A DNA stretch of 64,000 nt from positions 25,710 through 89,709 of the forward strand of contig JAIQEV010000005.1 of assembly GCA_020073585.1 (NCBI GenBank). Direction: 5' to 3'. Source of the DNA: Terriglobia bacterium (GTDB taxonomy: Bacteria > Acidobacteriota > Terriglobia > Acidiferrales > UBA7541). The position numbers were made by a program, and so were the translations under genes. This document shows, one piece after another, positions 16,698 through 64,000 of this stretch. Positions within the stretch are counted from its first letter, which is position 1, and each line of letters opens with the position of its first letter. Under the pieces are notes generated by a model, which made no database searches, had not been told where the DNA came from, and worked only from the letters and a program-made list of their open reading frames with translations.

Positions 16698-18165
16698 GGG
16701 CTCGATCCTGGTAGTGGACGACGAATCGGAGATCCGCGAGGGTCTGGAGCTGTTGCTGACCTCGGAAGGGTACCGCGTGAGCAGCGCGGAAACGGGCGCC
16801 GCGGGCTTGGCCAAGCTGGAAGAGCAGCCCTACGACCTGCTGCTGCTGGACGTGAGCCTGCCGGACCGCAACGGTCTGGAGCTGCTGCGGGAGATCCGGC
16901 AGCGCGACGCGCACCTGGCGGTGGTGCTGATCACGGCGTACGGCTCGATCGACATGGCGCGGCAGGCCTTCAAGAGCGGCGCGCTGGACTACATCACCAA
17001 GCCGTGGTCCAACGACGAGCTGCTGGCGCAGGTGGCGCAGGCCGTGGAAGCGCAGAAGCTGCGCGAAGAAAACCTGCAGTTGAAGCGGGCGCTGAAGCAA
17101 CGCTTCAATTTCCCGAACATCATCGGCAAGAGCGAGAAAATGCTGAAGCTGCTGGACCTGGTGACGCAGGTGGCGGCGGCGCGCTCCACGGTGCTGGTCA
17201 GCGGGGAGAGCGGGACGGGCAAGGAGCTGATCGCCAAGGCCATTCACTCGGCGTCGCCGCGCGCGGACAAGGCTTTCGTGCCGGTGAACACGGGGTCCAT
17301 CCCGGCGGACCTGCTGGAATCGCAGCTCTTCGGGCACGTGCGCGGAGCGTTCACCAGCGCGGTGGCCTCCAAGAAGGGGCTCTTCGAAGTGGCCGACCAG
17401 GGCACGATTTTCTTCGACGAAATCGCCACCATCAGCCCGGAAACGCAGGCCAAGCTGCTGCGCGTGATCCAGGAGCGGGAGTTCATGCGCCTGGGCGGAA
17501 CGGAGCAGATCAAGGTGGACGTGCGCATCGTGGCGGCGTCCAACGTGGACCTGCTGACGCTGGTGCGCGAAGGGCGCTTCCGCGAGGACCTCTATCACCG
17601 CCTGAACGTGATCCACCTGCAGCTGCCGCCGCTGCGCGAGCGGCGCGAGGACGTGCCGCTGCTGCTGGCGCACTTCCTGCAGCGCTACTGCCAGGAAAAC
17701 GGCAAGCCGCCGCGGCAGTTCAGCGCGGGGGCGCTGAAGCTGATGATGGACTACGACTGGCCGGGGAACGTGCGCGAGCTGGAAAACGTGGTGGAGCGCG
17801 CGGTGGTGCTCTCGACGCAGGAAAAGATGGACGTGGACCTGCTTCCGGCGGCGCTGCGCAGCAAGGAAATCGTGCGCGGGGTGCGCCTGCAGCTCTCGGA
17901 TTTTCTGCCCCCGCTGCCGGGGGAGCCGGGCGCGCGGACCGGTGCGGACAGCACGCAGCCCTCGCTGTTTCAGATCATGGACGAGATCGAGCGGCGCATC
18001 ATCGTGGACATGCTGGAGCGCAGCGGCTGGAACCAGACGGAAGCGGCAGAGCGCTTCCTGATTCCGCTTTCGACGCTGAACCAGAAGATCAAGCGCCTGG
18101 GAATCGACGTGCGCCGGCGCGGGCGCGGCGCCGAAGAGGCCTACAGCGCGGCGCCCGGAAAGTAG
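16690..18165 (+). CDS. Sigma54-dependent (NtrC-family) response regulator: REC, AAA+, Fis-type HTH
   Basis: ILVVDDE...LLLLDVSLPD receiver. Walker A GESGTGKE. GAFTSA (GAFTGA variant). ESQLFGH. C-terminal HTH NQTEAAERFLIPLSTLNQKIKRLGI. ATGTCTAA overlap with the kinase stop. Confidence 0.9.
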   Translation: MSKGSILVVDDESEIREGLELLLTSEGYRVSSAETGAAGLAKLEEQPYDLLLLDVSLPDRNGLELLREIRQRDAHLAVVLITAYGSIDMARQAFKSGALDYITKPWSNDELLAQVAQAVEAQKLREENLQLKRALKQRFNFPNIIGKSEKMLKLLDLVTQVAAARSTVLVSGESGTGKELIAKAIHSASPRADKAFVPVNTGSIPADLLESQLFGHVRGAFTSAVASKKGLFEVADQGTIFFDEIATISPETQAKLLRVIQEREFMRLGGTEQIKVDVRIVAASNVDLLTLVREGRFREDLYHRLNVIHLQLPPLRERREDVPLLLAHFLQRYCQENGKPPRQFSAGALKLMMDYDWPGNVRELENVVERAVVLSTQEKMDVDLLPAALRSKEIVRGVRLQLSDFLPPLPGEPGARTGADSTQPSLFQIMDEIERRIIVDMLERSGWNQTEAAERFLIPLSTLNQKIKRLGIDVRRRGRGAEEAYSAAPGK

Positions 18166-18298
18166 CGGACCGCGCGGCTCGCCGCAGGACGGCGGCTTCC
18201 CGCACGAACCCGGCCCTGTGCACCATAGAGCAATTCCGCAAATGCAAACCGCACTTTGTTCTTGCCTCCGCGCGCCGAGCTATGCAGAGTAGCGCGGG

Positions 18299-19630
18299 AT
18301 GATTCTGCGCCTATCGAGCCCGGCCGTGCGCTGGGCGTATCTGCTTATTTCGGCGGCCGTCGCCGTGGGGCTGGGCTATTTTTCGTTGCGCAACGCGTGG
18401 GCCGAGCACCAGGCCGACCCCCAGGAGGCGGCCGGCCTAGAGCGCGCCACCAAACTGGAGCCCGGCAACGCGCACCACTGGTATCTGCTGGGACGCTACT
18501 GGCAATACAACCTGGAGCAGCCGGACACCGCGCGGGCCATCGCGCTATACCAGCGGGCGCTTTCCCTGGAGCCGCACGCGGCGGGCATCTGGCTGGACCT
18601 CGCGGAATCCCAGGAAGCCGAAGGGGAGCTGAAGGCGGCGCGGGAGGCGTTTCTCGAGGCGCGCACGAATTATCCGGTGTCCGCGGACGTGGCGTGGCGC
18701 TACGGAAATTTTCTGCTGCGCCAGGGGGAGACGGACGCGGCGTTCGCGGAGATTCAGCGCAGCCTGGCGGAGGAGCCGAGGCGCGCGGCGGAAGCCATCT
18801 CGGTCTGCTGGCGGGCCAAGCCGGACATCCGGGTGCTGCTGGATCAGGCGCTGCCGGCCTCGCCGCAGGTCTATCTCAGCGTGATCGAAGTGTTCGCGCA
18901 GCAGTGGGAGACGGACGCAGCGCTGGCGGTGTGGCGGCGCCTGGCCGGGCTGCGGCCGAAGCTGGAGCTCAAGCAGGTGAACATCTTGGTGGACGCCTTG
19001 CTGGCCAAGCGGCAGGTGGCGGAGGCGCGCGAGGTGTGGACGCAGGCGCTGGATTTTGCCGGCGCTCCCCGGCCCGGCGATCCCGCGAAGTCGCTGATCT
19101 GGGACGGGGGCTTCGAAACGGGAGTGAGCGGCGGATTCGCGTGGCGCCTGCAGGCGGCGCAGGGAGCGCAGATGGACTTCGACAGCGAGGTGCGGCATTC
19201 GGGAAACCGCGCGCTGCGCATCCGCTTCGACGGCAAGCAGAACCCGCAGTTCGAAAATGTCTGCCAGTTCGTGGCCGTGACGCCGGAAACGCCGTATCAG
19301 CTGGAGGCCTGGATGCGCGCCAAATCGGTCACGACCGACCGGGGAGTTTACGTGCTGGTGCGCACCCCGGAGTTTCCCACCAATCCTCCGGCGATGACCG
19401 TGGATATGCGCGAAACGCAGCCGTGGACGCGGCTGGCCTTGTCCTGGACGGCCGGCAAGGACGTGCACCTCGCACAGGTGTGCCTGGGGCGGGCGATCAG
19501 CCAGAAACTGGACAACCAGATTTCCGGGACGGTATGGGTGGATGACTTCACGCTGACGCCGGAGAGCGCGCCGCGCGCGGCGTCCCCCGCCGCAAGCCCC
19601 GCGGAAGCCGCGGCAAAGGAACGGCCGTGA
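18299..19630 (+). CDS. Membrane-anchored TPR-repeat protein with C-terminal CBM4/9-like jelly-roll domain
   Basis: N-terminal TM WAYLLISAAVAVGLGYF. TPR-like AxxxYxxAL repeats. C-terminus DGGFETGVSGGFAWRL ... GTVWVDDFTLT resembles carbohydrate-binding modules. Confidence 0.7.
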   Translation: MILRLSSPAVRWAYLLISAAVAVGLGYFSLRNAWAEHQADPQEAAGLERATKLEPGNAHHWYLLGRYWQYNLEQPDTARAIALYQRALSLEPHAAGIWLDLAESQEAEGELKAAREAFLEARTNYPVSADVAWRYGNFLLRQGETDAAFAEIQRSLAEEPRRAAEAISVCWRAKPDIRVLLDQALPASPQVYLSVIEVFAQQWETDAALAVWRRLAGLRPKLELKQVNILVDALLAKRQVAEAREVWTQALDFAGAPRPGDPAKSLIWDGGFETGVSGGFAWRLQAAQGAQMDFDSEVRHSGNRALRIRFDGKQNPQFENVCQFVAVTPETPYQLEAWMRAKSVTTDRGVYVLVRTPEFPTNPPAMTVDMRETQPWTRLALSWTAGKDVHLAQVCLGRAISQKLDNQISGTVWVDDFTLTPESAPRAASPAASPAEAAAKERP

Positions 19631-50640: not shown

Positions 50641-51555
50641 GTGAAAGCCCGCTCCATGCTGTTTACTCTCTACGGGGATTACATCCGCCACTTTGGGGGC
50701 ACCATCTGGAGCGGGAGTCTGGTCACCCTCATGGGGGAGTTGGGATTTTCCTCCGGGGCAGTGCGCACGGCGCTGTCGAGGACCTGCCAGCAGGGCTGGC
50801 TCAAGGCCGTCCGCGACGGCAAGAATAGCTTCTACAGTCTGACCAAACTTGGGGAAGAACGCATGGAAGAAGCGGCCCGGCGCATCTTCCATCCGCGCTC
50901 GGGCGTTTGGGACGGGCAATGGACGATCATCACCTATGGCCAGCCGGAAACGAAGCCGGCGGAGCGCGGGCGGCTGCGGGGCGAACTGCAGTGGCTGGGA
51001 TTCGGCCGCTTGATTCCGGGAGTGTGGATATCGCCCAATCCGCTCGGGCGGATTGCGCTGAACCACCTTCGTTTACAGGGGATGAAGGCCTCCGCAGAGG
51101 TCTTCACCGCCCGGCACATCGGCAATGCCAGCAGCGAAGAACTGGTGCGGCGATGCTGGGACATTGCGGCCATCAACCGCAGCTACGAACAGTTCATCCG
51201 AACCTGGCAACCGCGCTGGAAGGCGTGCCAGGGGGAGTTGGCGCGCGGCGCTTCCGTGTCCAACCGGATCTGCTTTGCGGACAAGACCTGGCTGGTGCAC
51301 GAGTATCGCAAATTTCTGTTCATAGACCCCGGTTTGCCTGCCGAATTGCTGCCCAAAGCGTGGGCCGGAGCCGCTGCCTGGCGGCTGTTCCGGAACTACT
51401 ACCAACTTCTCGCCGACGGGGCGCTCGGTTTTTTTGAGCAGGTCTATAAAGCGCCCTCGGAAACCCGCTGGGACGCCACACAGGCTCGGCTGCGGGCCCT
51501 GCAGAACCCATTTGAAAGCTCCTGGGAAAAGGCAGAAACCGCGTCCGTCCGCTGA
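50641..51555 (+). CDS. PaaX-family transcriptional regulator (copy 1)
   Basis: LFTLYGDYIRHFGGTIWSGSLVTLMGELGFSSGAVRTALSRTCQQGWL. C-terminal WDGQWTII...GFGRLIPGVWISP...LVHEYRKFLFIDPGLPAELLP. SD AGAGGTG 7 nt before the GTG start. Confidence 0.85.
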   Translation: MKARSMLFTLYGDYIRHFGGTIWSGSLVTLMGELGFSSGAVRTALSRTCQQGWLKAVRDGKNSFYSLTKLGEERMEEAARRIFHPRSGVWDGQWTIITYGQPETKPAERGRLRGELQWLGFGRLIPGVWISPNPLGRIALNHLRLQGMKASAEVFTARHIGNASSEELVRRCWDIAAINRSYEQFIRTWQPRWKACQGELARGASVSNRICFADKTWLVHEYRKFLFIDPGLPAELLPKAWAGAAAWRLFRNYYQLLADGALGFFEQVYKAPSETRWDATQARLRALQNPFESSWEKAETASVR

Positions 51556-51698
51556 GCGGGCGGCGGGGTTCTGAAAAAGGACGACGAGTGAATTCGTGCT
51601 TGACAAGGGAAATGGTCTGCGCGAAAGTATGTTACAGAAATATAAGTAGAAATAGAAAAGTGTAATAGAAAAACGCTCTTCTCGGGGAATGGCAGGCG

Positions 51699-57804: not shown

Positions 57805-58692
57805 CTAGGCCAGCTCCAGCACGCGATGCATAACCCTCTCGCGTCCCCTGCGCTTTTCCGCTTCCGTGTGAGGCGGACCCTGAAAATTCTCCTCGAAAAA
57901 GGCCAGCGCCCTTTCGGCCAGCAAGAAGTAACAGTCGCGAAAGACCCGCCAGGCGTCGTTGGCCAGCCAGCCTTCGGGTAGAAGTTCCGAAGGCAGCCCC
58001 GGGTCCAGATAGAGGAATCTGCCGTATTCATGGAGCAGCCGCATCTTGGAAGCGAAACAGACATTGTCGGAGGGCGCGTGACCGGTTTTGAAGCGCGATT
58101 GGTAAGAACGCCACACGGGCTTCCACGCTTTGATGAAGTCGCGATGGCACGCCTGCACGGCGCTCAGATCCCAGCATCTGGCGACCAGATCGGTGCCGGC
58201 CTGCGCGTTGACGTGCCGTGCTCGAAACAAGTTGACGTACTTATCCAGACGCCGCTCGGCGAGATGCTTGAGGGTCAGCTCCACCGCGGGTTTCGGTATG
58301 ATCCAACTGGCCGGGGTGAGCGAACCAAAGCCCAGCCAGATCAACTCCCGGCGCAGCCGCTCGCGATGCTGGCGCAGCTTTTCCGGCAGCGAATAGCTCA
58401 GGATCGTCCACTGGCCATCCCACTTCTCGACGCGGGGAGCAAAAATCCTGGGTGCGGCCTCTTCCACGCGGTCCCGGCCCATTGGCGTCAGCGCATAGTA
58501 GCTCTTCTTGCCAAAGACGGAGCGCTCCAGCCAATCCTGTTGGGCCAGGCGGCAGAGGGCGGCGCGCACGGCCACGGCCGAAAATCCCATCTCTTCGCAG
58601 AGCCGCAGCAGGCTCCGCACGTGGATGGAACCGCCGTAGTGCTGGACGTAATCGAGATAGATCTCAAAAACCGCCCTGCGCGCCTTCACCAA
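57805..58692 (-). CDS. PaaX-family transcriptional regulator (copy 2)
   Basis: VFEIYLDYVQHYGGSIHVRSLLRLCEEMGFSAVAVRAALCRLAQQDWL, WDGQWTILSY, LLHEYGRFLYLDPGLPSELLPEGW. Apparent operon with the crotonase. Confidence 0.85.
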   Translation of the reverse strand: MVKARRAVFEIYLDYVQHYGGSIHVRSLLRLCEEMGFSAVAVRAALCRLAQQDWLERSVFGKKSYYALTPMGRDRVEEAAPRIFAPRVEKWDGQWTILSYSLPEKLRQHRERLRRELIWLGFGSLTPASWIIPKPAVELTLKHLAERRLDKYVNLFRARHVNAQAGTDLVARCWDLSAVQACHRDFIKAWKPVWRSYQSRFKTGHAPSDNVCFASKMRLLHEYGRFLYLDPGLPSELLPEGWLANDAWRVFRDCYFLLAERALAFFEENFQGPPHTEAEKRRGRERVMHRVLELA

Positions 58693-58875
58693 GACTCTCC
58701 TTCAAAACGTGCAACACCCGCCAGCGTTCCAGCTCCCGCGTGCCTCGCAGCCTTCCCGTGCCGGCACTGCGGAGCAGCTCCTTGACAGGAAATGACCGCG
58801 ATTATATCGTTGCATTCCTCCACGTGTACACATAAAGTTTGTAACAAATTTTAGCAAGCTTGCGGGTGTGAAACC

Positions 58876-59805
58876 ATGGAGTGGGCCATCCACCTAGGGG
58901 ACGGAAGCCGGGCGGAAAATTGGGACGAACTTTTCCCTTGCCGGCCCCCGCGCTCGCATGAATCTCCTCTACAGGAGGCTCAAGCAGCCGCTGCCCAAAT
59001 GCTGGAGCGGGTGGCCGGGCGAATTTCCCCGCGACGCGCCTATGTCGGAAACGAATTCTGCCAGAGCTTGATTCCCGCGCCGGAGCATCTTTCCCGGATT
59101 TGCCGCACCCTGTGGAAGTCGGGCGTGAACATAACCTTTCTGACCCCACCGGTTACGGATGAAGGCCTGGATAGATTGCGGATTTTATTTACCTGGCTGG
59201 TCCGGCAGAAACACGCCGTCGAAGTGGTCTTCAACGACTGGGGCACGCTGGAGTTGCTGCACCAGGAATTTGAAAAGCTGGACCCCGTGCGCGGCCGCCT
59301 CCTGAACAAGATTCTGCGCGATCCTCGGGTCACTCCTCTGTACAATTCGCCGACTGCTCCTGACGGGATACGGGCCGCCTTGCAGCCAGGCAGTCTCGAT
59401 ACACCGTTTCTGCGGCGCTTGCTGAGCCGGTACAGAGTGCGGTCCGTGGAGTCGGACGTCCTGGCGCTCGGCCCGGATGCGGATTTTCGCCGGCTTTCCT
59501 TTGCAGTATCTTTCTACTTTCCGTATGGATTTGTAACGACAGGGCGGCAATGCATGATGGGTTCGCTCCGCCTGAAGAATGGCGGGCGATTTCAGCCCGG
59601 GCTCTCCTGCCAGCGTGAGTGCCGGCTGTACCTCACGGAACACCGGTTTTCCGGAACGACGCTGGAGACCAAGGGGACAGCGTTTTATCAGCGCGGAAAC
59701 ACCTTTTTTTATTGCCCCCCGCCAGATGTGCTCGATAGTTTCTTGGAGCGGGCCGAGAAAAATGGCGTGAGCCGTGTGGTATATGAACCCGGCTTGCCCA
59801 TGTGA
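58876..59805 (+). CDS. U32-superfamily protein, UbiV-like (putative Fe-S subunit of an O2-independent hydroxylase)
   Basis: Block-by-block parallel to E. coli UbiV as remembered: YVGNEFCQS ~ YLGEAVCSK; VVFNDWGTLELL ~ LIEASDLGVVNM; FYFPYGFVTTGRQCM ~ LSYGHLPLAYSARCF; SCQRECRLY ~ ECETCCIKY; VSRVVYEP ~ VDVVRLSP. The 1+3 Cys pattern is kept. Confidence 0.55.
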   Translation: MEWAIHLGDGSRAENWDELFPCRPPRSHESPLQEAQAAAAQMLERVAGRISPRRAYVGNEFCQSLIPAPEHLSRICRTLWKSGVNITFLTPPVTDEGLDRLRILFTWLVRQKHAVEVVFNDWGTLELLHQEFEKLDPVRGRLLNKILRDPRVTPLYNSPTAPDGIRAALQPGSLDTPFLRRLLSRYRVRSVESDVLALGPDADFRRLSFAVSFYFPYGFVTTGRQCMMGSLRLKNGGRFQPGLSCQRECRLYLTEHRFSGTTLETKGTAFYQRGNTFFYCPPPDVLDSFLERAEKNGVSRVVYEPGLPM

Positions 59806-59812
59806 GTGCCTG

Positions 59813-60826
59813 ATGAAAATCCTGGCGCCTTTGAATTCGCCTGAAGAGACACAGATGCTCCTGGCCAACGGAGCCGAGGAGCTCTATTGCGGACTGGTGC
59901 CCGAGGAATGGGTGGCCCGCAACACCGGCGCCGTCTGGTTGAACCGGCGCAGCCCGGCGGGCGGCAACCTGCGCAGTTTCTTCGATCTCGCGCGAGTGGT
60001 TGAAGAGGCCCACGCGTGGTCCGTTCCCGTCTTCGTGACGCTGAACGCACAGGGCTACACGGCGGGACAATTGCCGCAGGTCCTGGAGCTGGCGCGCCGC
60101 TACGTCGAAGAAGCCCGCATCGATGCTTTGATTGTGTCCGATCCAGCGCTGATCGTGGCCTTGGCAGAAGAGAGCCTGGGCTGCGCCCTGCATCTCAGCT
60201 CCATTGCCGCGTCCTTGAATGCGCGAGCCATCCGCTTCTTCCGCTCCTTGGGTATCCGCCGTGTGATTCTGCCGCGTTCCGTGACCCTGGAGGAAATCCG
60301 GCAAATGGCCTGCAGTGCCGGCCCGGAAGTTGAGCTCGAAGTATTTATTCTGAACGATGGATGCATTTTCGAGGAAGGGAACTGCCTTACGACGCATCAT
60401 CACTCGGTAGGCGCATTCTGCACCGGCCTGGCCCGGATGGATTCCCGGCCGGTAAAGATTTCCGGTTCCCCCTGGCTTCCCGGGGAGAAGGAAAGCGTGG
60501 ACGCGCTCCTCGAAGAGTTTCATCAGCGAATCAATATGCTTACCAATGCCGATGCCACACAGGGAAAAGGGCTCCCCGGGCCCTGCGGGCTATGCGCGAT
60601 TCCGTTTTTGCAGCGTGCCGGTATCTCCTCTCTCAAGATTGTCGGGCGCGAAGCCTCCGCCTTGCGAAAGTTGATGAGCCTGAAGCTGGTGCGGGCCGTT
60701 GTGGATCAGGTGCGGCGCGAGATTCCCGAAGCGGCTGTGCAGCACTACGCGCAGTCCCTTCGAGGCGGAGCGTCACCGTGCGTCCCAGGCAGAATGTGCT
60801 ATTACGAACTTGGAGAAACGGCATGA
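59813..60826 (+). CDS. Peptidase-U32-family protein (UbiU/RlhA/TrhP-type)
   Basis: MKILAPLNSPEETQMLLANGAEELYCG, VFVTLNAQ, IDALIVSDPALI, LHLSSIAASLN, U32 signature-like EVFILNDGCIFEEGNCL, plus additional CGLC. Confidence 0.75.
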   Translation: MKILAPLNSPEETQMLLANGAEELYCGLVPEEWVARNTGAVWLNRRSPAGGNLRSFFDLARVVEEAHAWSVPVFVTLNAQGYTAGQLPQVLELARRYVEEARIDALIVSDPALIVALAEESLGCALHLSSIAASLNARAIRFFRSLGIRRVILPRSVTLEEIRQMACSAGPEVELEVFILNDGCIFEEGNCLTTHHHSVGAFCTGLARMDSRPVKISGSPWLPGEKESVDALLEEFHQRINMLTNADATQGKGLPGPCGLCAIPFLQRAGISSLKIVGREASALRKLMSLKLVRAVVDQVRREIPEAAVQHYAQSLRGGASPCVPGRMCYYELGETA

Positions 60827-61932
60827 AAAGAGGAACCAGGGACTGTCGCGCTTTCGGCCGCGGGCGTCCAGCAGAGCTGTTGGCCTTGCTGGCTGTGATG
60901 GTTATGTTCTTCTTCGTCCCCGCCGGGACGGCGGCGCAGGCGCAAGGACCGGATTTGTACGTGGTCGCCATGCATCCCCGCTCCCTGCTCCTGTTCGACG
61001 GCAGCCGCGATGAAATCGTCGGGGAGATACAGACGCGCGGGCGCAATCCCAGAGAGGTTGTGCCGTCACCGGATGGCCGGTTTGTGTATGCGACCACCGA
61101 AGGACGCGCCCAGTTGGAGATGATCAATCTGCAGACTCGCAAAGTCGAGCGGGTCTTCGACCTCGCGCCGCAAGGCTACCGGCTGACGATTTATGGAGTG
61201 GCGATCAGCAGCAAGGGAGACCGGTTGTACGTGCACGTCAAACCGGTGCGCGAACTGGCGGACGAGTACAAAGTGGATCCTCCCCAGATCTGGGCGGTGA
61301 ACGTGAATACGGGAAAGAGCGAGAAAATCGTGGAAGTGCCGCAGGGCGTGGCCGCGCTGGTAATGACAAAGGACGAACGGCGGCTCATCGCCTGGGGGCG
61401 CGATCTCTATTACATCGATCTGGCCCAGGGCCGCATCACGGATACAGTTCCTCTGTTCAACCGCAATCTGCCCGGCCAGGGACCGCTCGACACCCTGCCG
61501 CTGTTCATCGAATATGAGCGCAGCGGCGTCCTGAGCTGCCCGTATTACACGACGGATCCGATTCTCAAGAAGACCCTTTTTGGTTTGGCGAATCTCGATC
61601 TGGACACCGGCAAGATGGATCTGGTGGAACTGGGTCCGGCCATCCCGCTCTATTCGAGCGTGGTGTCCGCGGACCGCAAGCGGGCCTATGGGGTGATGAA
61701 CCAGTTGGTGGCGGTGGACTTGTCTGCGGGAAGAGTCCGGAATGTGCAGGATCTGGAGCGCACCCAGTACATCACCAATATCAGCCGGGACGGCAAGAAA
61801 CTGTATGTTTCCGGCGCATCCTATTTCATCCATGTTTACGATACCGAGACAATGAAGTTGACCAAGACCGTAAAACTGTCCGGCGATGCCAGCATTTCGT
61901 TCAGCGCCATACCGGCGGTCGCGGTGCATTGA
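60823..61932 (+). CDS. Exported YVTN/YncE-like beta-propeller repeat protein
   Basis: ATGA overlap with the U32 gene. Signal peptide LLALLAVMVMFFFVPAGTAAQA. Repeated SPDGRFVYATT / SSKGDRLYV / SADRKRAYG / SRDGKKLYVSG blades. Confidence 0.7.
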   Translation: MKRGTRDCRAFGRGRPAELLALLAVMVMFFFVPAGTAAQAQGPDLYVVAMHPRSLLLFDGSRDEIVGEIQTRGRNPREVVPSPDGRFVYATTEGRAQLEMINLQTRKVERVFDLAPQGYRLTIYGVAISSKGDRLYVHVKPVRELADEYKVDPPQIWAVNVNTGKSEKIVEVPQGVAALVMTKDERRLIAWGRDLYYIDLAQGRITDTVPLFNRNLPGQGPLDTLPLFIEYERSGVLSCPYYTTDPILKKTLFGLANLDLDTGKMDLVELGPAIPLYSSVVSADRKRAYGVMNQLVAVDLSAGRVRNVQDLERTQYITNISRDGKKLYVSGASYFIHVYDTETMKLTKTVKLSGDASISFSAIPAVAVH

Positions 61933-62005
61933 TGCGCGGAGTTTTCATCCTGGAAGAAAGCCAGGGGGAAAGAAGCGATAAATTTGCGTGTGGGATGAGC
62001 AATCT

Positions 62006-63730
62006 ATGACGGTGGGAAACTCAACCAACAATCGTTTGAGCTATTGTCACGGAACGGGGCCGCTTCCCCTCCTGGGGCTTTGTGTGGGGCAGGTGCTGGA
62101 CGATACGGCCCGCGCCTACCCGGACAATCCGGCGCTCATCGCCCGGCACCAGAACAAGCGCTATACCTACCGGGAATTCCTGCGGGAGGTCGAACGAGCA
62201 GCAAGCGGACTGCTGCGGTTGGGAGTCCAGAAGAGTGATCGGGTCGGCATCTGGTCCACTAACTGTGCGGAATGGGTGGTGGCGCAGTTTGCCGCGGCCA
62301 AGATAGGGGCGATCCTGGTCAGCATCAATCCCGCCAACCGTGCGTTCGAACTGGAACATGTCTTGAGGCACTCCGAATGCCAGACACTCGTGCTGGCCCG
62401 GAGTTTTCGCGATTGCGACTACCTCGAGACGGTGCGGCATCTCTGCCCGGAATCGGTTCGCAGCCGGCCCGGTGACTTGCAGTCCGCAAGGCTGCCCAGC
62501 TTGAAGAATCTGATCCTGATCGGCGAGGGCCCGGTCCCGGACTGCATGTATCGTTGGGAAGAACTGTCAGAGCTGGGGAAAGATTTGCCCGCTGGGGAAC
62601 TTCAGGAACGCGAAGCATCCTTGGAGTTCGACGATCCCATCAGCCTCCAGTACACCTCAGGCACTACAGGCATGCCCAAAGGGACCATGCTCACCCACCA
62701 CAATATGGTCAACAACGCTTTTTTCGCCGGCGCCAGCATGAAGTTGACACACCGGGACCGGCTCTGCATTCCGGTCCCTTTCTACCACTGTTTCGGGATG
62801 GTCCTGAGCAACCTGCTGTGCGTGTTGTCGGGAGCGGCGATGGTTCTTCCCGCCGCCCATTTCGACGCTTTGGAAACTTTGCGGGCATTAGCCGAAGAGC
62901 GCTGCACGGCAGTGCATGGTGTCCCGACCATGTTTATCGCGGAACTGGAGCACCCGGAGTTCAGCCGCTTCGATCTGAGCATGCTGCGCACTGGAATTGT
63001 CGGCGCTTCACCCTGCCCGATCGAAGTGATGAAACGCGTGGTGCAGTCCATGCACTTGCGTGATCTAACGATTGCCTACGGCCTCACCGAGGCTTCTCCG
63101 CTGATCACGCAAACCAGCACCGGCGTTTCCGTGGAACTCCTGGTAACGACCGTGGGCCAGCCCCTGCCGCACACCGAAGTGAAGATTATCGATGTGGCGA
63201 CGGGGATGACCGTCCCGGTTGGCGTGCAGGGAGAACTGTGCGTCCGCGGATACATGGTGATGAAGGGCTACTACAAGAACGCCGAGGCCACCCGGCTGGC
63301 GGTTGACGAAAACGGCTGGCTGCATTCGGGAGATCTCGCCACGATGGGCGATGACGGATATTTCCGGATCACCGGACGAGCCAAGGACGTCATCATTCGG
63401 GGCGGTGAAAACATTTACCCGGGGGAAATCGAGGAGTTTTTGTACACGTGTCCCGGCGTCAGTAACGCGCAGGTGATCGGCGTTCCGGATGTTAAGTATG
63501 GAGAGCGCATCGTCGCCTGGGTAAAACTGGAACCCGAGGCCAAGTTGACGGCGGAAGAGATCATAAAGTTCTGCGAAGGCAAAATCGCCGCTTATAAGGT
63601 TCCCAAGCACGTCAAGATAGTGGATTCTTTCCCGATGACCCTGAGCGGCAAAATCCAGAAGTTCAAGATGCGTGAAATGGCCATCCAGGAACTGCAGCAG
63701 AAAGGAGCGGCCAATACGGGGAGTGCTTGA
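62006..63730 (+). CDS. AMP-forming acyl-CoA synthetase/ligase (ANL superfamily)
   Basis: LQYTSGTTGMPKGTMLTHHN (A3), YGLTEASP, GELCVRGY, SGDLA..DDGYFRITGRAKD, GKIQKF (A10 Lys). Confidence 0.9.
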   Translation: MTVGNSTNNRLSYCHGTGPLPLLGLCVGQVLDDTARAYPDNPALIARHQNKRYTYREFLREVERAASGLLRLGVQKSDRVGIWSTNCAEWVVAQFAAAKIGAILVSINPANRAFELEHVLRHSECQTLVLARSFRDCDYLETVRHLCPESVRSRPGDLQSARLPSLKNLILIGEGPVPDCMYRWEELSELGKDLPAGELQEREASLEFDDPISLQYTSGTTGMPKGTMLTHHNMVNNAFFAGASMKLTHRDRLCIPVPFYHCFGMVLSNLLCVLSGAAMVLPAAHFDALETLRALAEERCTAVHGVPTMFIAELEHPEFSRFDLSMLRTGIVGASPCPIEVMKRVVQSMHLRDLTIAYGLTEASPLITQTSTGVSVELLVTTVGQPLPHTEVKIIDVATGMTVPVGVQGELCVRGYMVMKGYYKNAEATRLAVDENGWLHSGDLATMGDDGYFRITGRAKDVIIRGGENIYPGEIEEFLYTCPGVSNAQVIGVPDVKYGERIVAWVKLEPEAKLTAEEIIKFCEGKIAAYKVPKHVKIVDSFPMTLSGKIQKFKMREMAIQELQQKGAANTGSA

Positions 63731-63756: not shown

Positions 63757-64000
63757 CTACACCGCCTCGTAAAAACCTTGCAGGACTCTTTGGTGCCCCT
63801 CTTGCTGCTCTTTCTGGGTGTGGGTCGGTCCTACAAAGATGTGTTCGAAATGACGCAAGGCCCGCTCGGCGAGCAAGAGGTAACAATCGCGGAAGATATG
63901 CCAGGCTTCATCGCCTAACCAGCCTTCGGGCAGAAGTTCAGAGGGGAGCTCGGGATCGTTGTGCAGAAACTCGCCGAACTGGTGCAGGAGATGGATGCGG
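63757..64000 (-). CDS. PaaX-family transcriptional regulator (copy 3), C-terminal 80 codons (5' end outside window)
   Basis: Own translation of the minus strand gives ...RIHLLHQFGEFLHNDPELPSELLPEGWLGDEAWHIFRDCYLLLAERALRHFEHIF...EAV*. It is collinear with the copy-2 tail LLHEYGRFLYLDPGLPSELLPEGWLANDAWRVFRDCYFLLAERALAFFEENF. Stop is at 63757-63759. Confidence 0.7.
   Translation of the reverse strand, partial: RIHLLHQFGEFLHNDPELPSELLPEGWLGDEAWHIFRDCYLLLAERALRHFEHIFVGPTHTQKEQQEGHQRVLQGFYEAV

What the first reader, a model, noticed from the sequence alone, without database searches (positions are those of the whole stretch)
58693..63730. PaaX-bracketed operon with a UbiV-like/UbiU-like U32 pair, an exported beta-propeller and an acyl-CoA ligase: candidate O2-independent aryl-acid hydroxylation system
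Two consecutive ORFs, 7 nt apart, both belong to the peptidase-U32 superfamily by eye.
- The second (59813-60826) has the canonical N-terminal ...ILAPLNSPEE...GAEELYCG, VFVTLN and the EVF..NDGC....GNC signature.
- The first (58876-59805) is collinear with E. coli UbiV as I remember it. It has one early Cys (YVGNEFCQS) and three late Cys (GRQCM, SCQRECRLY), the arrangement that ligates a 4Fe-4S cluster in UbiU/UbiV.

Known U32 members (UbiU-UbiV, RlhA, TrhP) are not proteases. They catalyse O2-independent hydroxylation of ubiquinone precursors or RNA bases. This pair is instead fused into an operon with three other elements:
- A signal-peptide beta-propeller (ATGA overlap at 60823).
- An ANL-family CoA ligase.
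- Flanking PaaX-family repressors on both sides, next to arylpyruvate-oxidising IOR/OFOR enzymes and a crotonase.

No SCP2 (UbiT-like) or ubiquinone/RNA-related gene is nearby. The context argues for hydroxylation of an aromatic acid or its CoA ester without O2. As far as I know that has not been described for U32 proteins.
Basis: partly seen in the sequence, partly recalled or inferred. Interest (0 to 1): 0.7.

Follow-up and report, generated by a model that had tools for sequence, protein, structure and literature searches.

The report
Iron-sulfur enzyme pair in amine-dehydrogenase cluster
The two adjacent genes are a real UbiU/UbiV-like iron-sulfur pair, but they belong to the gene cluster for a periplasmic amine dehydrogenase, where they usually sit in place of the oxygen-using enzyme that builds its tryptophan-quinone cofactor, so they may be an undescribed oxygen-free way to make that cofactor.

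Summary
ORF1 (58876-59805) and a U32 gene (59813-60826) lie 7 nt apart. They are followed, with an ATGA overlap, by an exported beta-propeller and an ANL ligase, between two PaaX genes.

The interpretation needs changing.
- The propeller is a QhpB, the beta subunit of quinohemoprotein amine dehydrogenase (QHNDH).
- A 91%-identical relative continues about 6 kb past the window's right end with qhpA-D-C-B-F-E.
- ORF1 belongs to a large unnamed family (2212 clusters at 50% identity, no Pfam or NCBIfam model) with four near-invariant Cys in a UbiV-like pattern. Homology to U32 is remote.
- In 55 of 83 ORF1-fetched loci from several phyla the pair lies beside qhp genes, mostly as qhpA-D-C-B-[ORF1-U32]-F-E.
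- PaaX neighbours are confined to close relatives. The window's ligase recurs only there; unrelated ANL ligases follow qhpE in three other loci.
- A qhpG-like gene (peptidyl-Trp dihydroxylase) is missing from 54 of those 55 loci. It lies in 35 of 58 otherwise similar pair-less qhp loci.
- Two lineages, including the window's, carry both.

Best reading (confidence about 0.55): an O2-independent hydroxylase of the gamma-subunit tryptophan for cysteine tryptophylquinone (CTQ). I found no paper linking U32 proteins to QHNDH.

The parts
57805..58692 (-). PaaX-family regulator (PaaX2), divergent from ORF1
   Evidence: The PaaX, PaaX_M and PaaX_C domains are all present. TIGR02277 scores 213.9 bits, below its cutoff of 264.55. 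The gene is syntenic in L081-83 and L147-149.
58782..58810 (+). Promoter-like site upstream of ORF1 (TTGACA, 17 nt, TATCGT) carrying the motif TTGACA-N0-3-GGAAATG
   Evidence: The site matches 10 of 12 consensus positions. The motif occurs only twice in 64 kb, here and at 51600 upstream of the IOR operon, with 0 matches expected by chance. It is conserved upstream of ORF1 in L081-83. Its function is inferred, not shown.
58876..59805 (+). ORF1: UbiV-like partner protein of an unnamed family, with a predicted TIM barrel and four conserved Cys (C62, C226, C245, C249)
   Evidence: - No Pfam or NCBIfam hit.
- The family has 2212 representative clusters and 339 relatives among GTDB species genomes.
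- The four Cys are conserved in at least 203 of 206 members.
- AF2 model: pLDDT 81.9, pTM 0.85, alternating beta/alpha elements.
- Foldseek: best TM-score to the U32 structure 5D88, TMt 0.50, probability 1.0.
- hhalign against the partner U32 family: probability 93.6%, E=2e-7.
59813..60826 (+). U32-family Fe-S protein (UbiU-like, but a distinct subfamily)
   Evidence: - PF01136 at E=1.2e-35.
- UbiU model 88 bits against a cutoff of 440; TrhP model 78 bits against 534.
- 25% identity to E. coli UbiU, E=2e-16.
- C184, C191 and C203 align with UbiU C169, C176 and C193.
- Seven Cys are conserved in 62-63 of 63 family members.
60823..61932 (+). QhpB#1: exported seven-bladed beta-propeller, a paralogue of the QHNDH beta subunit
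   Evidence: - 1JJU_B at E=1.2e-33 and 1JMX_B at E=9e-27, aligned end to end.
- TIGR03907 scores 177.8 bits, below its cutoff of 223.2.
- 58-60% identical to the QhpB#2 gene that follows qhpC in the relative L147.
- ATGA overlap with the U32 gene.
61988..63730 (+). ANL acyl-CoA ligase (LIG1), probably a downstream catabolic step (acid to acyl-CoA)
   Evidence: PF00501 and PF13193 match. PRK12583 scores 816 bits against a cutoff of 832. It is 70% identical to the ligase directly after qhpE in L148. Ligases or aldehyde dehydrogenases follow qhpE in several other lineages.
63760..64000 (-). C-terminal end of a third PaaX-family gene, cut by the end of the window
   Evidence: tblastn shows 91% identity to residues 234-313 of the PaaX gene downstream of the ligase in L081. 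The same gene is seen in L147-149.

Best explanation
**What it is.** ORF1 and the U32 protein form a two-subunit cytoplasmic Fe-S enzyme, architecturally like UbiV-UbiU. It is an accessory maturation factor of QHNDH.

**Proposed mechanism.**
1. The gamma-subunit precursor QhpC is cross-linked by the radical-SAM enzyme QhpD.
2. While it is still in the cytoplasm, the pair dihydroxylates the CTQ-precursor tryptophan (Trp43) without O2.
3. By analogy with UbiUV, TrhP and RlhA, the oxygen donor would be prephenate.
4. This does the job that the FAD monooxygenase QhpG does with O2.
5. QhpF and QhpE then export and trim the gamma subunit, which assembles with QhpA and QhpB in the periplasm.

**In the window's own lineage.** The pair is co-transcribed with a second QhpB paralogue and an acyl-CoA ligase under PaaX-type control. 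It co-exists with a qhpG-like gene at the far end of the same locus. This suggests dual O2-dependent and O2-independent routes, as with UbiIHF and UbiUV.

**Shown here.** Gene content, synteny, conservation of the Cys motifs, a largely complementary distribution with qhpG (co-occurring in two lineages, including the window's), and conservation of the CTQ residues in QhpC.

**Inferred.** Heterodimer formation, Fe-S binding, the substrate (QhpC Trp43), O2-independence and the prephenate donor.
For: 1. **The window's propeller is QhpB-like**.
2. **The locus continues as a qhp cluster.** In relatives 91-93% identical in DNA (L081, L147-149) the order is: ORF1-U32-QhpB1-ligase, PaaX, an outer-membrane protein, QhpA, QhpD, QhpC, QhpB2, QhpF, QhpE, two ligases, then a QhpG-like flavoprotein.
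3. **The association is widespread.** Of 83 loci fetched through ORF1, 55 hold at least one of qhpA, D, C, E or F. The dominant order is A-D-C-B-ORF1-U32-F-E, with 18 complete examples plus many variants. Hosts include Acidobacteriota, Bacillota (Sporosarcina, Planococcaceae, Brevibacillus), Planctomycetia, Gemmatimonadota and Sedimenticola.
4. **The qhp gene identities are confirmed** above NCBIfam cutoffs: QhpD 591 against 453, QhpA 516 against 274, QhpC 138 against 50, QhpE 165.8 against 165.
5. **The pair travels with the maturation module.** L010 and L014 have D-C-ORF1-U32-F-E. L013 and L042 have D-ORF1-U32-F-E. None of the four has qhpA or qhpB within 8 kb.
6. **qhpG-like genes are largely complementary.**
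   - They are absent from 54 of the 55 pair-containing qhp loci.
   - They are present in 35 of 58 pair-less qhp loci, immediately upstream of qhpA wherever placed.
   - The other genes of those pair-less loci are 50-70% identical to the pair-type ones.
   - With strict coverage the counts are: pair without G 28, G without pair 4, neither 2, both 0.
7. **Coexistence occurs in two lineages:** Sedimenticola (A-D-C-B-F-E-G-ORF1-U32) and the window's own.
8. **The same cofactor chemistry is required.** QhpC in pair-type clusters keeps every CTQ and cross-link residue: C7, E16, C27, D33, C37, C41, W43, D49 (roles from PMC7876137).
9. **The window's ORF1 nests inside the qhp-associated clade** of the family tree.
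10. **There is precedent.** UbiU-UbiV is a U32 heterodimer with one 4Fe-4S cluster per subunit (PMC6747719). It uses prephenate as the O donor (PMC10990095). It can replace three flavin monooxygenases even in air (PMC10470549).
11. **A weak extra link to prephenate supply.** A DAHP synthase lies next to the pair in Desulfotruncus, and a DAHP-synthase/prephenate-dehydratase fusion lies in the L010 and L014 clusters.
Against: - There is no experimental evidence, and no in-silico complex model could be run.
- ORF1's homology to U32 and UbiV is remote. Pfam finds nothing. The comparison with E. coli UbiV is not significant, although the UbiV profile available was too shallow to detect even true U32 relatives.
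- The complementarity with qhpG is imperfect and the sampling is biased. Loci were fetched through ORF1 or through one QhpA lineage and are phylogenetically non-independent. A qhpG could lie elsewhere in the genomes.
- The window's own lineage carries a QhpG-like gene, so the pair is not strictly needed there.
- About a third of the ORF1-U32 pairs examined (28 fetched loci, some of them short contigs) show no qhp gene nearby. They include strictly anaerobic Bacillota and a clade in anaerobic catabolic clusters. The module therefore has other substrates elsewhere.
- Several hosts with pair-type clusters are aerobes, so O2-independence is not obviously selected for.
- The window itself holds only QhpB. 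The rest of the qhp genes are inferred from relatives.
Confidence: 0.55

Rival explanations
1. The pair is a QHNDH maturation factor but not the Trp hydroxylase. It might supply electrons to QhpD, catalyse or assist the Cys37-Trp43 thioether, oxidise dihydroxy-Trp to the quinone, or chaperone the QhpC-QhpD complex.
For: It shares the same qhp-cluster association. The U32 partner has seven conserved Cys, more than one cluster needs, which would suit an electron-transfer role. The pair coexists with a QhpG-like gene in the window's lineage and in Sedimenticola.
Against: - Canonical clusters in Paracoccus and Pseudomonas need no such factor (qhpABCDEFGR; PMC7876137).
- The one component that compact pair-type clusters lack is qhpG.
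- All characterised U32 Fe-S proteins are linked to hydroxylation (PMC11574389).
Confidence: 0.2
2. One reading: the pair hydroxylates an aromatic acid or its CoA ester without O2, as part of a PaaX-controlled catabolic operon that also holds the ligase. The propeller would be incidental.
For: - The unit is bracketed by PaaX genes and ends with a ligase.
- It shares a rare promoter-region motif with the IOR operon.
- A distant clade of the family, ordered U32 then ORF1, sits in anaerobic catabolic clusters. These hold a mutase-like gene with MeaB, BcrAD-type activators, 2-hydroxyacyl-CoA-dehydratase-like genes and a hydantoinase-like gene.
Against: - PaaX and crotonase neighbours occur only in close Terriglobia relatives, and ligases only there and after qhpE in three other loci. 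The qhp genes are the conserved context across phyla.
- The window's ORF1 lies in the qhp-associated clade, not the catabolic one.
- The ligase has a 70% paralogue directly after qhpE in the main qhp operon. It fits downstream amine catabolism instead.
- PaaX control is equally explained if QHNDH oxidises 2-phenylethylamine towards phenylacetyl-CoA (inference).
Confidence: 0.1
3. The U32 protein is a genuine peptidase that removes the QhpC leader or processes a subunit, and ORF1 is its accessory.
For: The family is historically named 'peptidase U32'. QhpC has a 28-residue leader that must be removed (PMC7876137).
Against: - Most compact pair-type clusters already encode the dedicated leader protease QhpE.
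- Strictly conserved Fe-S-type Cys motifs are typical of the oxidase branch of the family, not of a protease (PMC6747719).
Confidence: 0.03
4. The association with qhp is a hitch-hiking artefact. The pair would serve an unrelated cellular function, such as RNA hydroxylation, and merely be syntenic.
For: About a third of the pairs examined have no qhp neighbour. Characterised U32 enzymes act on RNA or quinones (PMC11574389).
Against: - The pair is inserted at the same position, between qhpB and qhpF, on the same strand and with short gaps.
- This is seen in at least four phyla whose ORF1 identity is as low as 31%.
- It also co-segregates with D-C-F-E when A and B are absent.
Confidence: 0.05

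Closest known systems
UbiU-UbiV (E. coli YhbU/YhbV), the O2-independent, prephenate-dependent hydroxylase pair of ubiquinone biosynthesis
   Same: - Two adjacent genes, one a clear U32-domain protein and one a more divergent partner.
- The partner has one early and three late Cys: CXnCX18CX3C here, CXnCX12CX3C in UbiV.
- The first three UbiU ligands (C169, C176, C193) align with invariant Cys of the window's U32 protein.
- UbiUV replaces flavin monooxygenases (PMC10470549), as proposed here for QhpG.
   Different: - Not orthologous: the UbiU model scores 88 bits against a cutoff of 440, and identity is 25%.
- ORF1 is not detected by PF01136, whereas UbiV is.
- Gene order is reversed, with the partner first.
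- No UbiT/SCP2 gene is present.
- The U32 subunit has seven conserved Cys rather than four.
- The proposed substrate is a protein side chain, not a prenylated phenol.
QhpG, FAD-dependent peptidyl-tryptophan dihydroxylase of CTQ biogenesis (PDB 7CTQ; PMC7876137)
   Same: - The proposed reaction and substrate are the same: Trp43 of cross-linked QhpC, in the cytoplasm, before export.
- Both are members of qhp gene clusters.
- The distribution is largely complementary.
- In Novosphingobium a weakly QhpG-like ORF occupies the slot between qhpB and qhpF that the pair occupies elsewhere.
   Different: There is no sequence or fold relationship, since QhpG is a flavoprotein of the halogenase-like class and the pair are Fe-S TIM-barrel proteins. 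QhpG needs O2, with both O atoms coming from O2. The pair is predicted not to need it.
TrhP and RlhA, U32 proteins needed for O2-independent hydroxylation of tRNA U34 and 23S rRNA C2501
   Same: They share the U32 domain and the conserved Cys motif. TrhP is the second-best NCBIfam hit. Both have O2-dependent counterparts in the same organisms, a dual-system logic.
   Different: They are single-gene enzymes acting on RNA and have C-terminal extensions absent here. The TrhP model scores 78 bits against a cutoff of 534.
Canonical qhp operon (qhpADCBEFGR) of Paracoccus denitrificans and Pseudomonas putida
   Same: The A, D, C, B, E and F genes are all present in pair-type clusters and in the window's lineage. 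The QhpC catalytic and cross-link residues are invariant.
   Different: - An ORF1-U32 pair is inserted, usually without qhpG.
- F and E are in swapped order.
- In the window's lineage the regulators are PaaX-type rather than the AraC-type QhpR.
- That lineage also has duplicated qhpB and ligase genes and a TonB-type outer-membrane protein.

Membership tests
Peptidase_U32 (PF01136), U32 gene 59813-60826 | Score above the Pfam gathering threshold | tested here: met
   123.3 bits against 22.4, E=1.2e-35, profile positions 10-202 of 233.
Peptidase_U32 (PF01136), ORF1 58876-59805 | Score above the Pfam gathering threshold, or a significant profile match to U32 proteins | tested here: inconclusive
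   - No Pfam hit for the window protein. Only 1 of 27 family members reaches E=0.22.
- hhalign of a 206-sequence ORF1 profile against the partner U32 family: probability 93.6%, E=2e-7, but only 80 columns.
- Foldseek best TM-score is to the U32 structure 5D88 (TMq 0.41, TMt 0.50), with generic TIM barrels at similar E-values.
UbiU (NCBIfam NF047963 equivalog) | Score at or above the curated cutoff (440 bits) | tested here: not met
   88.1 bits, matching only the N-terminal half, residues 1-193.
UbiU-UbiV system | Four Cys ligands per subunit: UbiU C169, C176, C193, C232; UbiV C39, C180, C193, C197 (PMC6747719) | tested here: inconclusive
   - U32 gene: three of the four UbiU ligands align with invariant Cys. 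The fourth is ambiguous among C258, C261, C323 and C329.
- ORF1: the same one-plus-three pattern as UbiV. A family HMM aligns both Cys motifs with UbiV in register, but at marginal scores (E=0.017 for a one-sequence search).
UbiU-UbiV system | Genomic association with ubiT (SCP2) in a ubiquinone-making proteobacterium | tested here: not met
   - No SCP2 or ubi gene was found among the neighbours scanned.
- Hosts are Acidobacteriota, Bacillota and others.
- The quinone type of the host was not tested.
UbiU-UbiV system | Heterodimer with two 4Fe-4S clusters; prephenate as O donor | not testable with these tools
   This needs a multimer model, biochemistry and 18O labelling.
QHNDH beta subunit (TIGR03907), 60823-61932 | Score at or above the curated cutoff (223.2 bits) | tested here: not met
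   177.8 bits, E=3e-52. The protein nevertheless aligns end to end with the solved beta subunits 1JJU_B (E=1.2e-33) and 1JMX_B. It is 58-60% identical to the gene that follows qhpC in L147. It is therefore a divergent member or paralogue.
qhp (QHNDH) gene cluster | Co-located qhpA, qhpC and qhpB structural genes with qhpD, qhpE and qhpF maturation genes | tested here: met
   - This is met in relatives, not inside the window.
- L147-149 (91% DNA identity) carry all six within 16 kb of ORF1.
- The window itself contains only qhpB, because it ends about 6 kb short of qhpA.
QhpG (peptidyl tryptophan dihydroxylase, 7CTQ) | Homology to the FAD-dependent monooxygenase | tested here: not met
   ORF1 and U32 have no similarity to QhpG. 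They are proposed as functional analogues only. A separate QhpG-like gene exists in the window's lineage.
PaaX (TIGR02277 equivalog) | Score at or above 264.55 bits; three PaaX domains | tested here: inconclusive
   PaaX1 scores 258.1 bits and PaaX2 213.9 bits, both below the cutoff. All three Pfam PaaX domains pass their thresholds. The effector, phenylacetyl-CoA, was not tested.

The most novel reading that the evidence does not exclude
A U32-type Fe-S heterodimer (ORF1-U32) is an O2-independent, probably prephenate-dependent, peptidyl-tryptophan dihydroxylase that builds the CTQ cofactor of QHNDH. It would be the first U32 enzyme acting on a protein, and the first anaerobic route to a quinone protein cofactor. 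ORF1 would define a large, unnamed UbiV-like partner family that pairs with U32 proteins in other contexts too.
Probability: 0.45. Interest if true: 0.85.

Novelty: new variant of a known kind. Interest (0 to 1): 0.72.

Why it matters
Characterised U32 'oxidases' are known only from ubiquinone biosynthesis and RNA base hydroxylation, and most U32 subfamilies have no known function (PMC10990095, PMC11574389). CTQ biogenesis is thought to need the O2-dependent flavoprotein QhpG (PMC7876137, PMC11951088).

If the pair replaces QhpG, several things follow.
- U32 chemistry would extend to protein side chains.
- It would explain how quinoprotein amine dehydrogenases can be matured without O2.
- It would give a soluble, genetically simple substrate (QhpC with QhpD) for the in-vitro U32 assay the field still lacks.
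- It would give a working function to a family with 2212 representative clusters and no model in Pfam or NCBIfam.
- It would offer a candidate enzyme class for other unexplained anoxic Trp hydroxylations.

Tried and rejected
1. **Direct tests of ORF1 as UbiV.**
   - hhalign of the family profile against E. coli UbiV or UbiU gave E=0.2-0.3.
   - Smith-Waterman with shuffles gave z=-0.07.
   - A search for UbiV relatives listed only sequences at least 85% identical to E. coli UbiV (one fused entry aside). That profile could not detect even the true U32 partner, E=0.06. The negative result is therefore uninformative.
2. **Sequence search of solved structures** with the ORF1 profile found nothing relevant.
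3. **Looking up the window's ligase** to extend the window failed because the protein is not on record. I reached the downstream region through relatives instead.
4. **The metagenome scan with QhpA** did not return the relative's long contig. It did yield the qhpG-type comparison set.
5. **Searching for qhpG with the Paracoccus protein alone** missed the soil-type genes. I repeated the search with three further queries.
6. **The rest of the qhp cluster inside the window** was considered and rejected, since tblastn was negative over all 64 kb.
7. **The conserved 390-aa gene after qhpE (cluster c15) as qhpG** was considered and rejected. It is an FGE/sulfatase-modifying-factor-like protein.
8. 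**Not done:** a complex model of ORF1, U32 and QhpC. The structure tool takes single window proteins only and returns no coordinates, so Cys clustering could not be checked either.

Full report

Yes.
- ORF1 is 58876-59805 (309 aa).
- The U32 gene is listed from an upstream GTG, but every homologue starts at the MKILAP methionine at 59813, 7 nt after the ORF1 stop.
- The next gene starts in an ATGA overlap at 60823. It has a signal-peptide-like N-terminus, by inspection.
- An AMP-binding ligase follows at 61988-63730.
- PaaX-family genes lie at 50641-51555 and 57805-58692. The C-terminus of a third lies at 63760-63999 on the minus strand.
- So the four-gene unit really is bracketed by PaaX genes. 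IOR, OFOR and crotonase genes lie upstream.

**2. What are the two proteins?**

*The second protein* is an unambiguous U32-domain protein (PF01136, E=1.2e-35). It is far below the curated cutoffs for UbiU (88 against 440 bits) and TrhP (78 against 534). It is 25% identical to E. coli UbiU. In an alignment of 29 family members with UbiU, C184, C191 and C203 are invariant and align with the UbiU ligands C169, C176 and C193 (ligands from PMC6747719). Four further Cys (C258, C261, C323, C329) are conserved in 62-63 of 63 members.

*ORF1* has no Pfam or NCBIfam hit, and its database relatives are all unnamed. The family is nevertheless large:
- 2212 representative clusters at E≤1e-3;
- 339 relatives among GTDB species genomes.

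C62, C226, C245 and C249 are conserved in at least 203 of 206 members. Their spacing, CXnCX18CX3C, resembles UbiV's CXnCX12CX3C.

Its AlphaFold model (pLDDT 81.9, pTM 0.85) alternates beta and alpha elements. Foldseek finds generic TIM barrels, with the best TM-score and probability for the only U32 structure, 5D88. A 206-sequence profile matches the partner U32 family at probability 93.6%, E=2e-7, over 80 columns.

Comparison with E. coli UbiV itself is not significant. That test was underpowered, because the UbiV profile available also fails to detect the true U32 partner. I therefore call ORF1 a remote, UbiV-like U32 relative. It is not a demonstrated family member.

**3. The propeller changes the picture.**

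It matches the QHNDH beta-subunit model TIGR03907 at 178 bits, E=3e-52, below the cutoff of 223. It aligns end to end with the solved beta subunits 1JJU_B (E=1.2e-33) and 1JMX_B.

**4. Neighbourhood survey.**

In the 80 best ORF1 loci, a U32 gene is called next to ORF1 in 62. Clustering of all neighbours gave six further recurrent families. NCBIfam identifies four of them above its cutoffs:
- QhpD, the radical-SAM maturase;
- QhpA, the dihaem alpha subunit;
- QhpC, the gamma subunit;
- QhpE, the subtilisin-like protease.

A fifth is a QhpF-like ABC exporter and the sixth is the propeller, QhpB.

Counts and patterns:
- Counting three further loci of close relatives (83 in all), 55 hold at least one of qhpA, D, C, E or F.
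- The dominant order is A-D-C-B-ORF1-U32-F-E, with 18 complete cases and many truncated or permuted ones. Hosts include Acidobacteriota, Bacillota, Planctomycetia, Gemmatimonadota and Sedimenticola.
- PaaX2 and the crotonase recur only in close Terriglobia relatives.
- The window's ligase recurs only in its own lineage. Generic ANL ligases of 27-32% identity follow qhpE in L010, L014 and L056.
- In L010 and L014 (D-C-ORF1-U32-F-E) and in L013 and L042 (D-ORF1-U32-F-E) there is no qhpA or qhpB within 8 kb. The pair travels with the gamma-subunit maturation and export module rather than with the structural subunits.
- In an NJ tree the window's ORF1 nests within a qhp-associated clade. The members without qhp neighbours, anaerobic Bacillota and a clade ordered U32 then ORF1, group apart.

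**5. The window's own locus.**

The window holds no qhpA, C, D, E or F. It ends 270 nt after the ligase.

Relatives that are collinear and 91-93% identical in DNA show what follows:
1. PaaX on the minus strand;
2. a TonB-type outer-membrane protein;
3. QhpA, QhpD, QhpC (PF08992), a second QhpB, QhpF and QhpE;
4. two ligases;
5. a flavoprotein with FAD_binding_3 and Trp_halogenase domains.

The window's QhpB is 58-60% identical to that second QhpB, and its ligase is 70% identical to the first of those ligases. The finding is therefore the left arm of an extended, partly duplicated qhp locus.

**6. What is missing where the pair is present?**

In canonical clusters the Trp43 of cross-linked QhpC is dihydroxylated by the FAD monooxygenase QhpG, using O2, within a QhpC-D-G complex (PMC7876137). 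I took QhpG from a Paracoccus plasmid (it matches 7CTQ at E=2e-43). I also took three divergent QhpG-like genes found in held loci.

Results:
- None of these queries hits 54 of the 55 pair-containing qhp loci. The exception is Sedimenticola.
- A second set of 58 qhp loci, fetched through QhpA, never contains the pair.
- That second set is otherwise similar. QhpA is about 51% identical to the pair-type proteins, QhpD about 61%, QhpC about 70%, and QhpF and QhpE 50-58%.
- It carries a QhpG-like gene in 35 cases, immediately upstream of qhpA wherever its position could be placed. Many of the remaining loci lack upstream coverage.
- With strict coverage the table is: pair without G 28, G without pair 4, neither 2, both 0.

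Two lineages have both:
- Sedimenticola hydrogenitrophicus, with A-D-C-B-F-E-G-ORF1-U32.
- The window's own lineage. Its terminal flavoprotein is 31-34% identical to the soil QhpG-like genes (E down to 1e-35). It hits 7CTQ at E=7e-16, although halogenases score higher.

QhpC keeps all eight residues that form CTQ and the three thioether bridges, in both cluster types. The same cofactor chemistry must therefore be served.

**7. Mechanism proposed.**

The pair is a cytoplasmic Fe-S hydroxylase acting on QhpC Trp43. It would be an O2-independent alternative to QhpG.

The precedents are direct:
- UbiU-UbiV is a U32 heterodimer with one 4Fe-4S cluster per subunit (PMC6747719).
- It takes its oxygen from prephenate (PMC10990095).
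- It can replace three flavin monooxygenases even in air (PMC10470549). That also removes the objection that some hosts here are aerobes.

Coexistence with QhpG in two lineages mirrors the UbiIHF and UbiUV duality.

A weak extra hint links the pair to prephenate supply. A DAHP synthase abuts the pair in Desulfotruncus, and a DAHP-synthase/prephenate-dehydratase/ACT fusion lies in the L010 and L014 clusters.

Everything beyond gene content, conservation and distribution is inference.

**8. The PaaX, ligase and IOR context.**

- Ligases or aldehyde dehydrogenases follow qhpE in several lineages. This fits the route amine to aldehyde to acid to acyl-CoA.
- Three PaaX paralogues suggest that phenylacetyl-CoA is the signal. 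One consistent reading is that this QHNDH serves 2-phenylethylamine-type substrates (inference).
- The motif TTGACA-N0-3-GGAAATG occurs only twice in the window, upstream of the IOR operon and of ORF1.

This context explains regulation and downstream catabolism. It does not identify the substrate of the U32 pair.

**9. Caveats.**

- Sampling was by similarity to ORF1 or to one QhpA lineage, and it is phylogenetically non-independent.
- A qhpG elsewhere in the genomes cannot be excluded.
- About a third of the pairs examined lack qhp neighbours. The module is therefore generic, with other substrates elsewhere, for example in the anaerobic catabolic clusters and on the Clostridium butyricum megaplasmid.
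- No complex model or Cys-geometry check was possible.

**10. Novelty.**

- Full-text searches found no paper containing U32 together with 'tryptophylquinone' or 'quinohemoprotein'.
- A 2024 review lists only ubiquinone and RNA substrates for U32 oxidases. A 2025 review lists only QhpG for QHNDH CTQ.
- NCBIfam release 20 has no model for either protein.

I rate this a new variant of a known kind: a U32 O2-independent hydroxylase pair with a new partner family and a new, protein substrate. Interest is 0.72.

Noticed in passing
window 51600-51614 and 58782-58794: The motif TTGACA-N0-3-GGAAATG occurs only twice in 64 kb, with 0 expected by chance. Both copies overlap a -35-like hexamer, one upstream of the IOR operon and one upstream of ORF1, each next to a PaaX gene. 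It may be a shared promoter or operator. The ORF1 copy is conserved in L081-83.
   Followed up: partly
window 63760-64000 (-): The window ends inside a third PaaX-family gene, 91% identical to the one in L081. There are therefore three PaaX paralogues within 14 kb.
   Followed up: yes
window 59813-60826 (residues C184, C191, C203, C258, C261, C323, C329): The U32 subunit has seven Cys conserved in 62-63 of 63 family members, against four ligands in UbiU. That is enough for a second cluster or metal site. Which Cys is the fourth ligand is unclear.
   Followed up: partly
L148 2367-3452 vs L147 13575-14672; L148 3528-5252 vs 17293-19017: In the window's lineage qhpB and the ligase are duplicated, at 56-60% and 70% identity. 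One copy of each sits with the U32 pair and the other in the main qhp operon, which ends with a QhpG-like gene. These may be two maturation or specificity modules.
   Followed up: partly
L010 6188-12447, L014, L013, L042: These clusters contain only qhpD, sometimes qhpC, ORF1, U32, qhpF and qhpE, with no alpha or beta subunit gene within 8 kb. Either the maturation module is encoded apart from the structural genes, or a cross-linked quinone peptide is exported on its own.
   Followed up: partly
L053 7040-7858 (-); L010 1333-3018 (+); L014: A DAHP synthase lies divergently next to the pair in Desulfotruncus alcoholivorax. An unusual fusion of DAHP synthase, prephenate dehydratase and an ACT domain lies in the Blastocatellia clusters. 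This may link the pair to prephenate supply. It was seen in only two independent lineages.
   Followed up: partly
L060 557-16198 (also L074, L076, L064, L080): A distinct clade with the order U32 then ORF1 (a short ORF1 of about 270 aa) sits in anaerobic-catabolism-like clusters. These hold GlcD/GlcF-like genes, a methylmalonyl-CoA-mutase-like gene with a B12-binding domain and MeaB, a FAD_binding_3 protein, BcrAD-type ATPases, 2-hydroxyglutaryl-CoA-dehydratase-like subunits and a hydantoinase-like gene.
   Followed up: partly
L086 11634-12923 (Novosphingobium sp. RL4 plasmid): A 429-aa ORF with no Pfam hit lies between qhpB and qhpF, the slot that the pair occupies elsewhere. It shows weak, fragmentary similarity to QhpG-like proteins (E=4e-8 by tblastn, 0.002-0.006 pairwise).
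   Followed up: partly
L146 6527-8968 (Clostridium butyricum megaplasmid): A 446-aa 'hypothetical protein' with an ORF1-like domain is followed by an annotated U32 family peptidase. The two lie next to an iron ABC transporter and a hemerythrin-domain gene. This is a cultured, tractable host for the generic module.
   Followed up: no
L039 5363-7831: Two tandem QhpB-like propeller genes follow qhpD and qhpC in L039. Only a short QhpA-like fragment lies upstream in L039, L049 and L050. This looks like a QHNDH variant without the usual dihaem alpha subunit.
   Followed up: no
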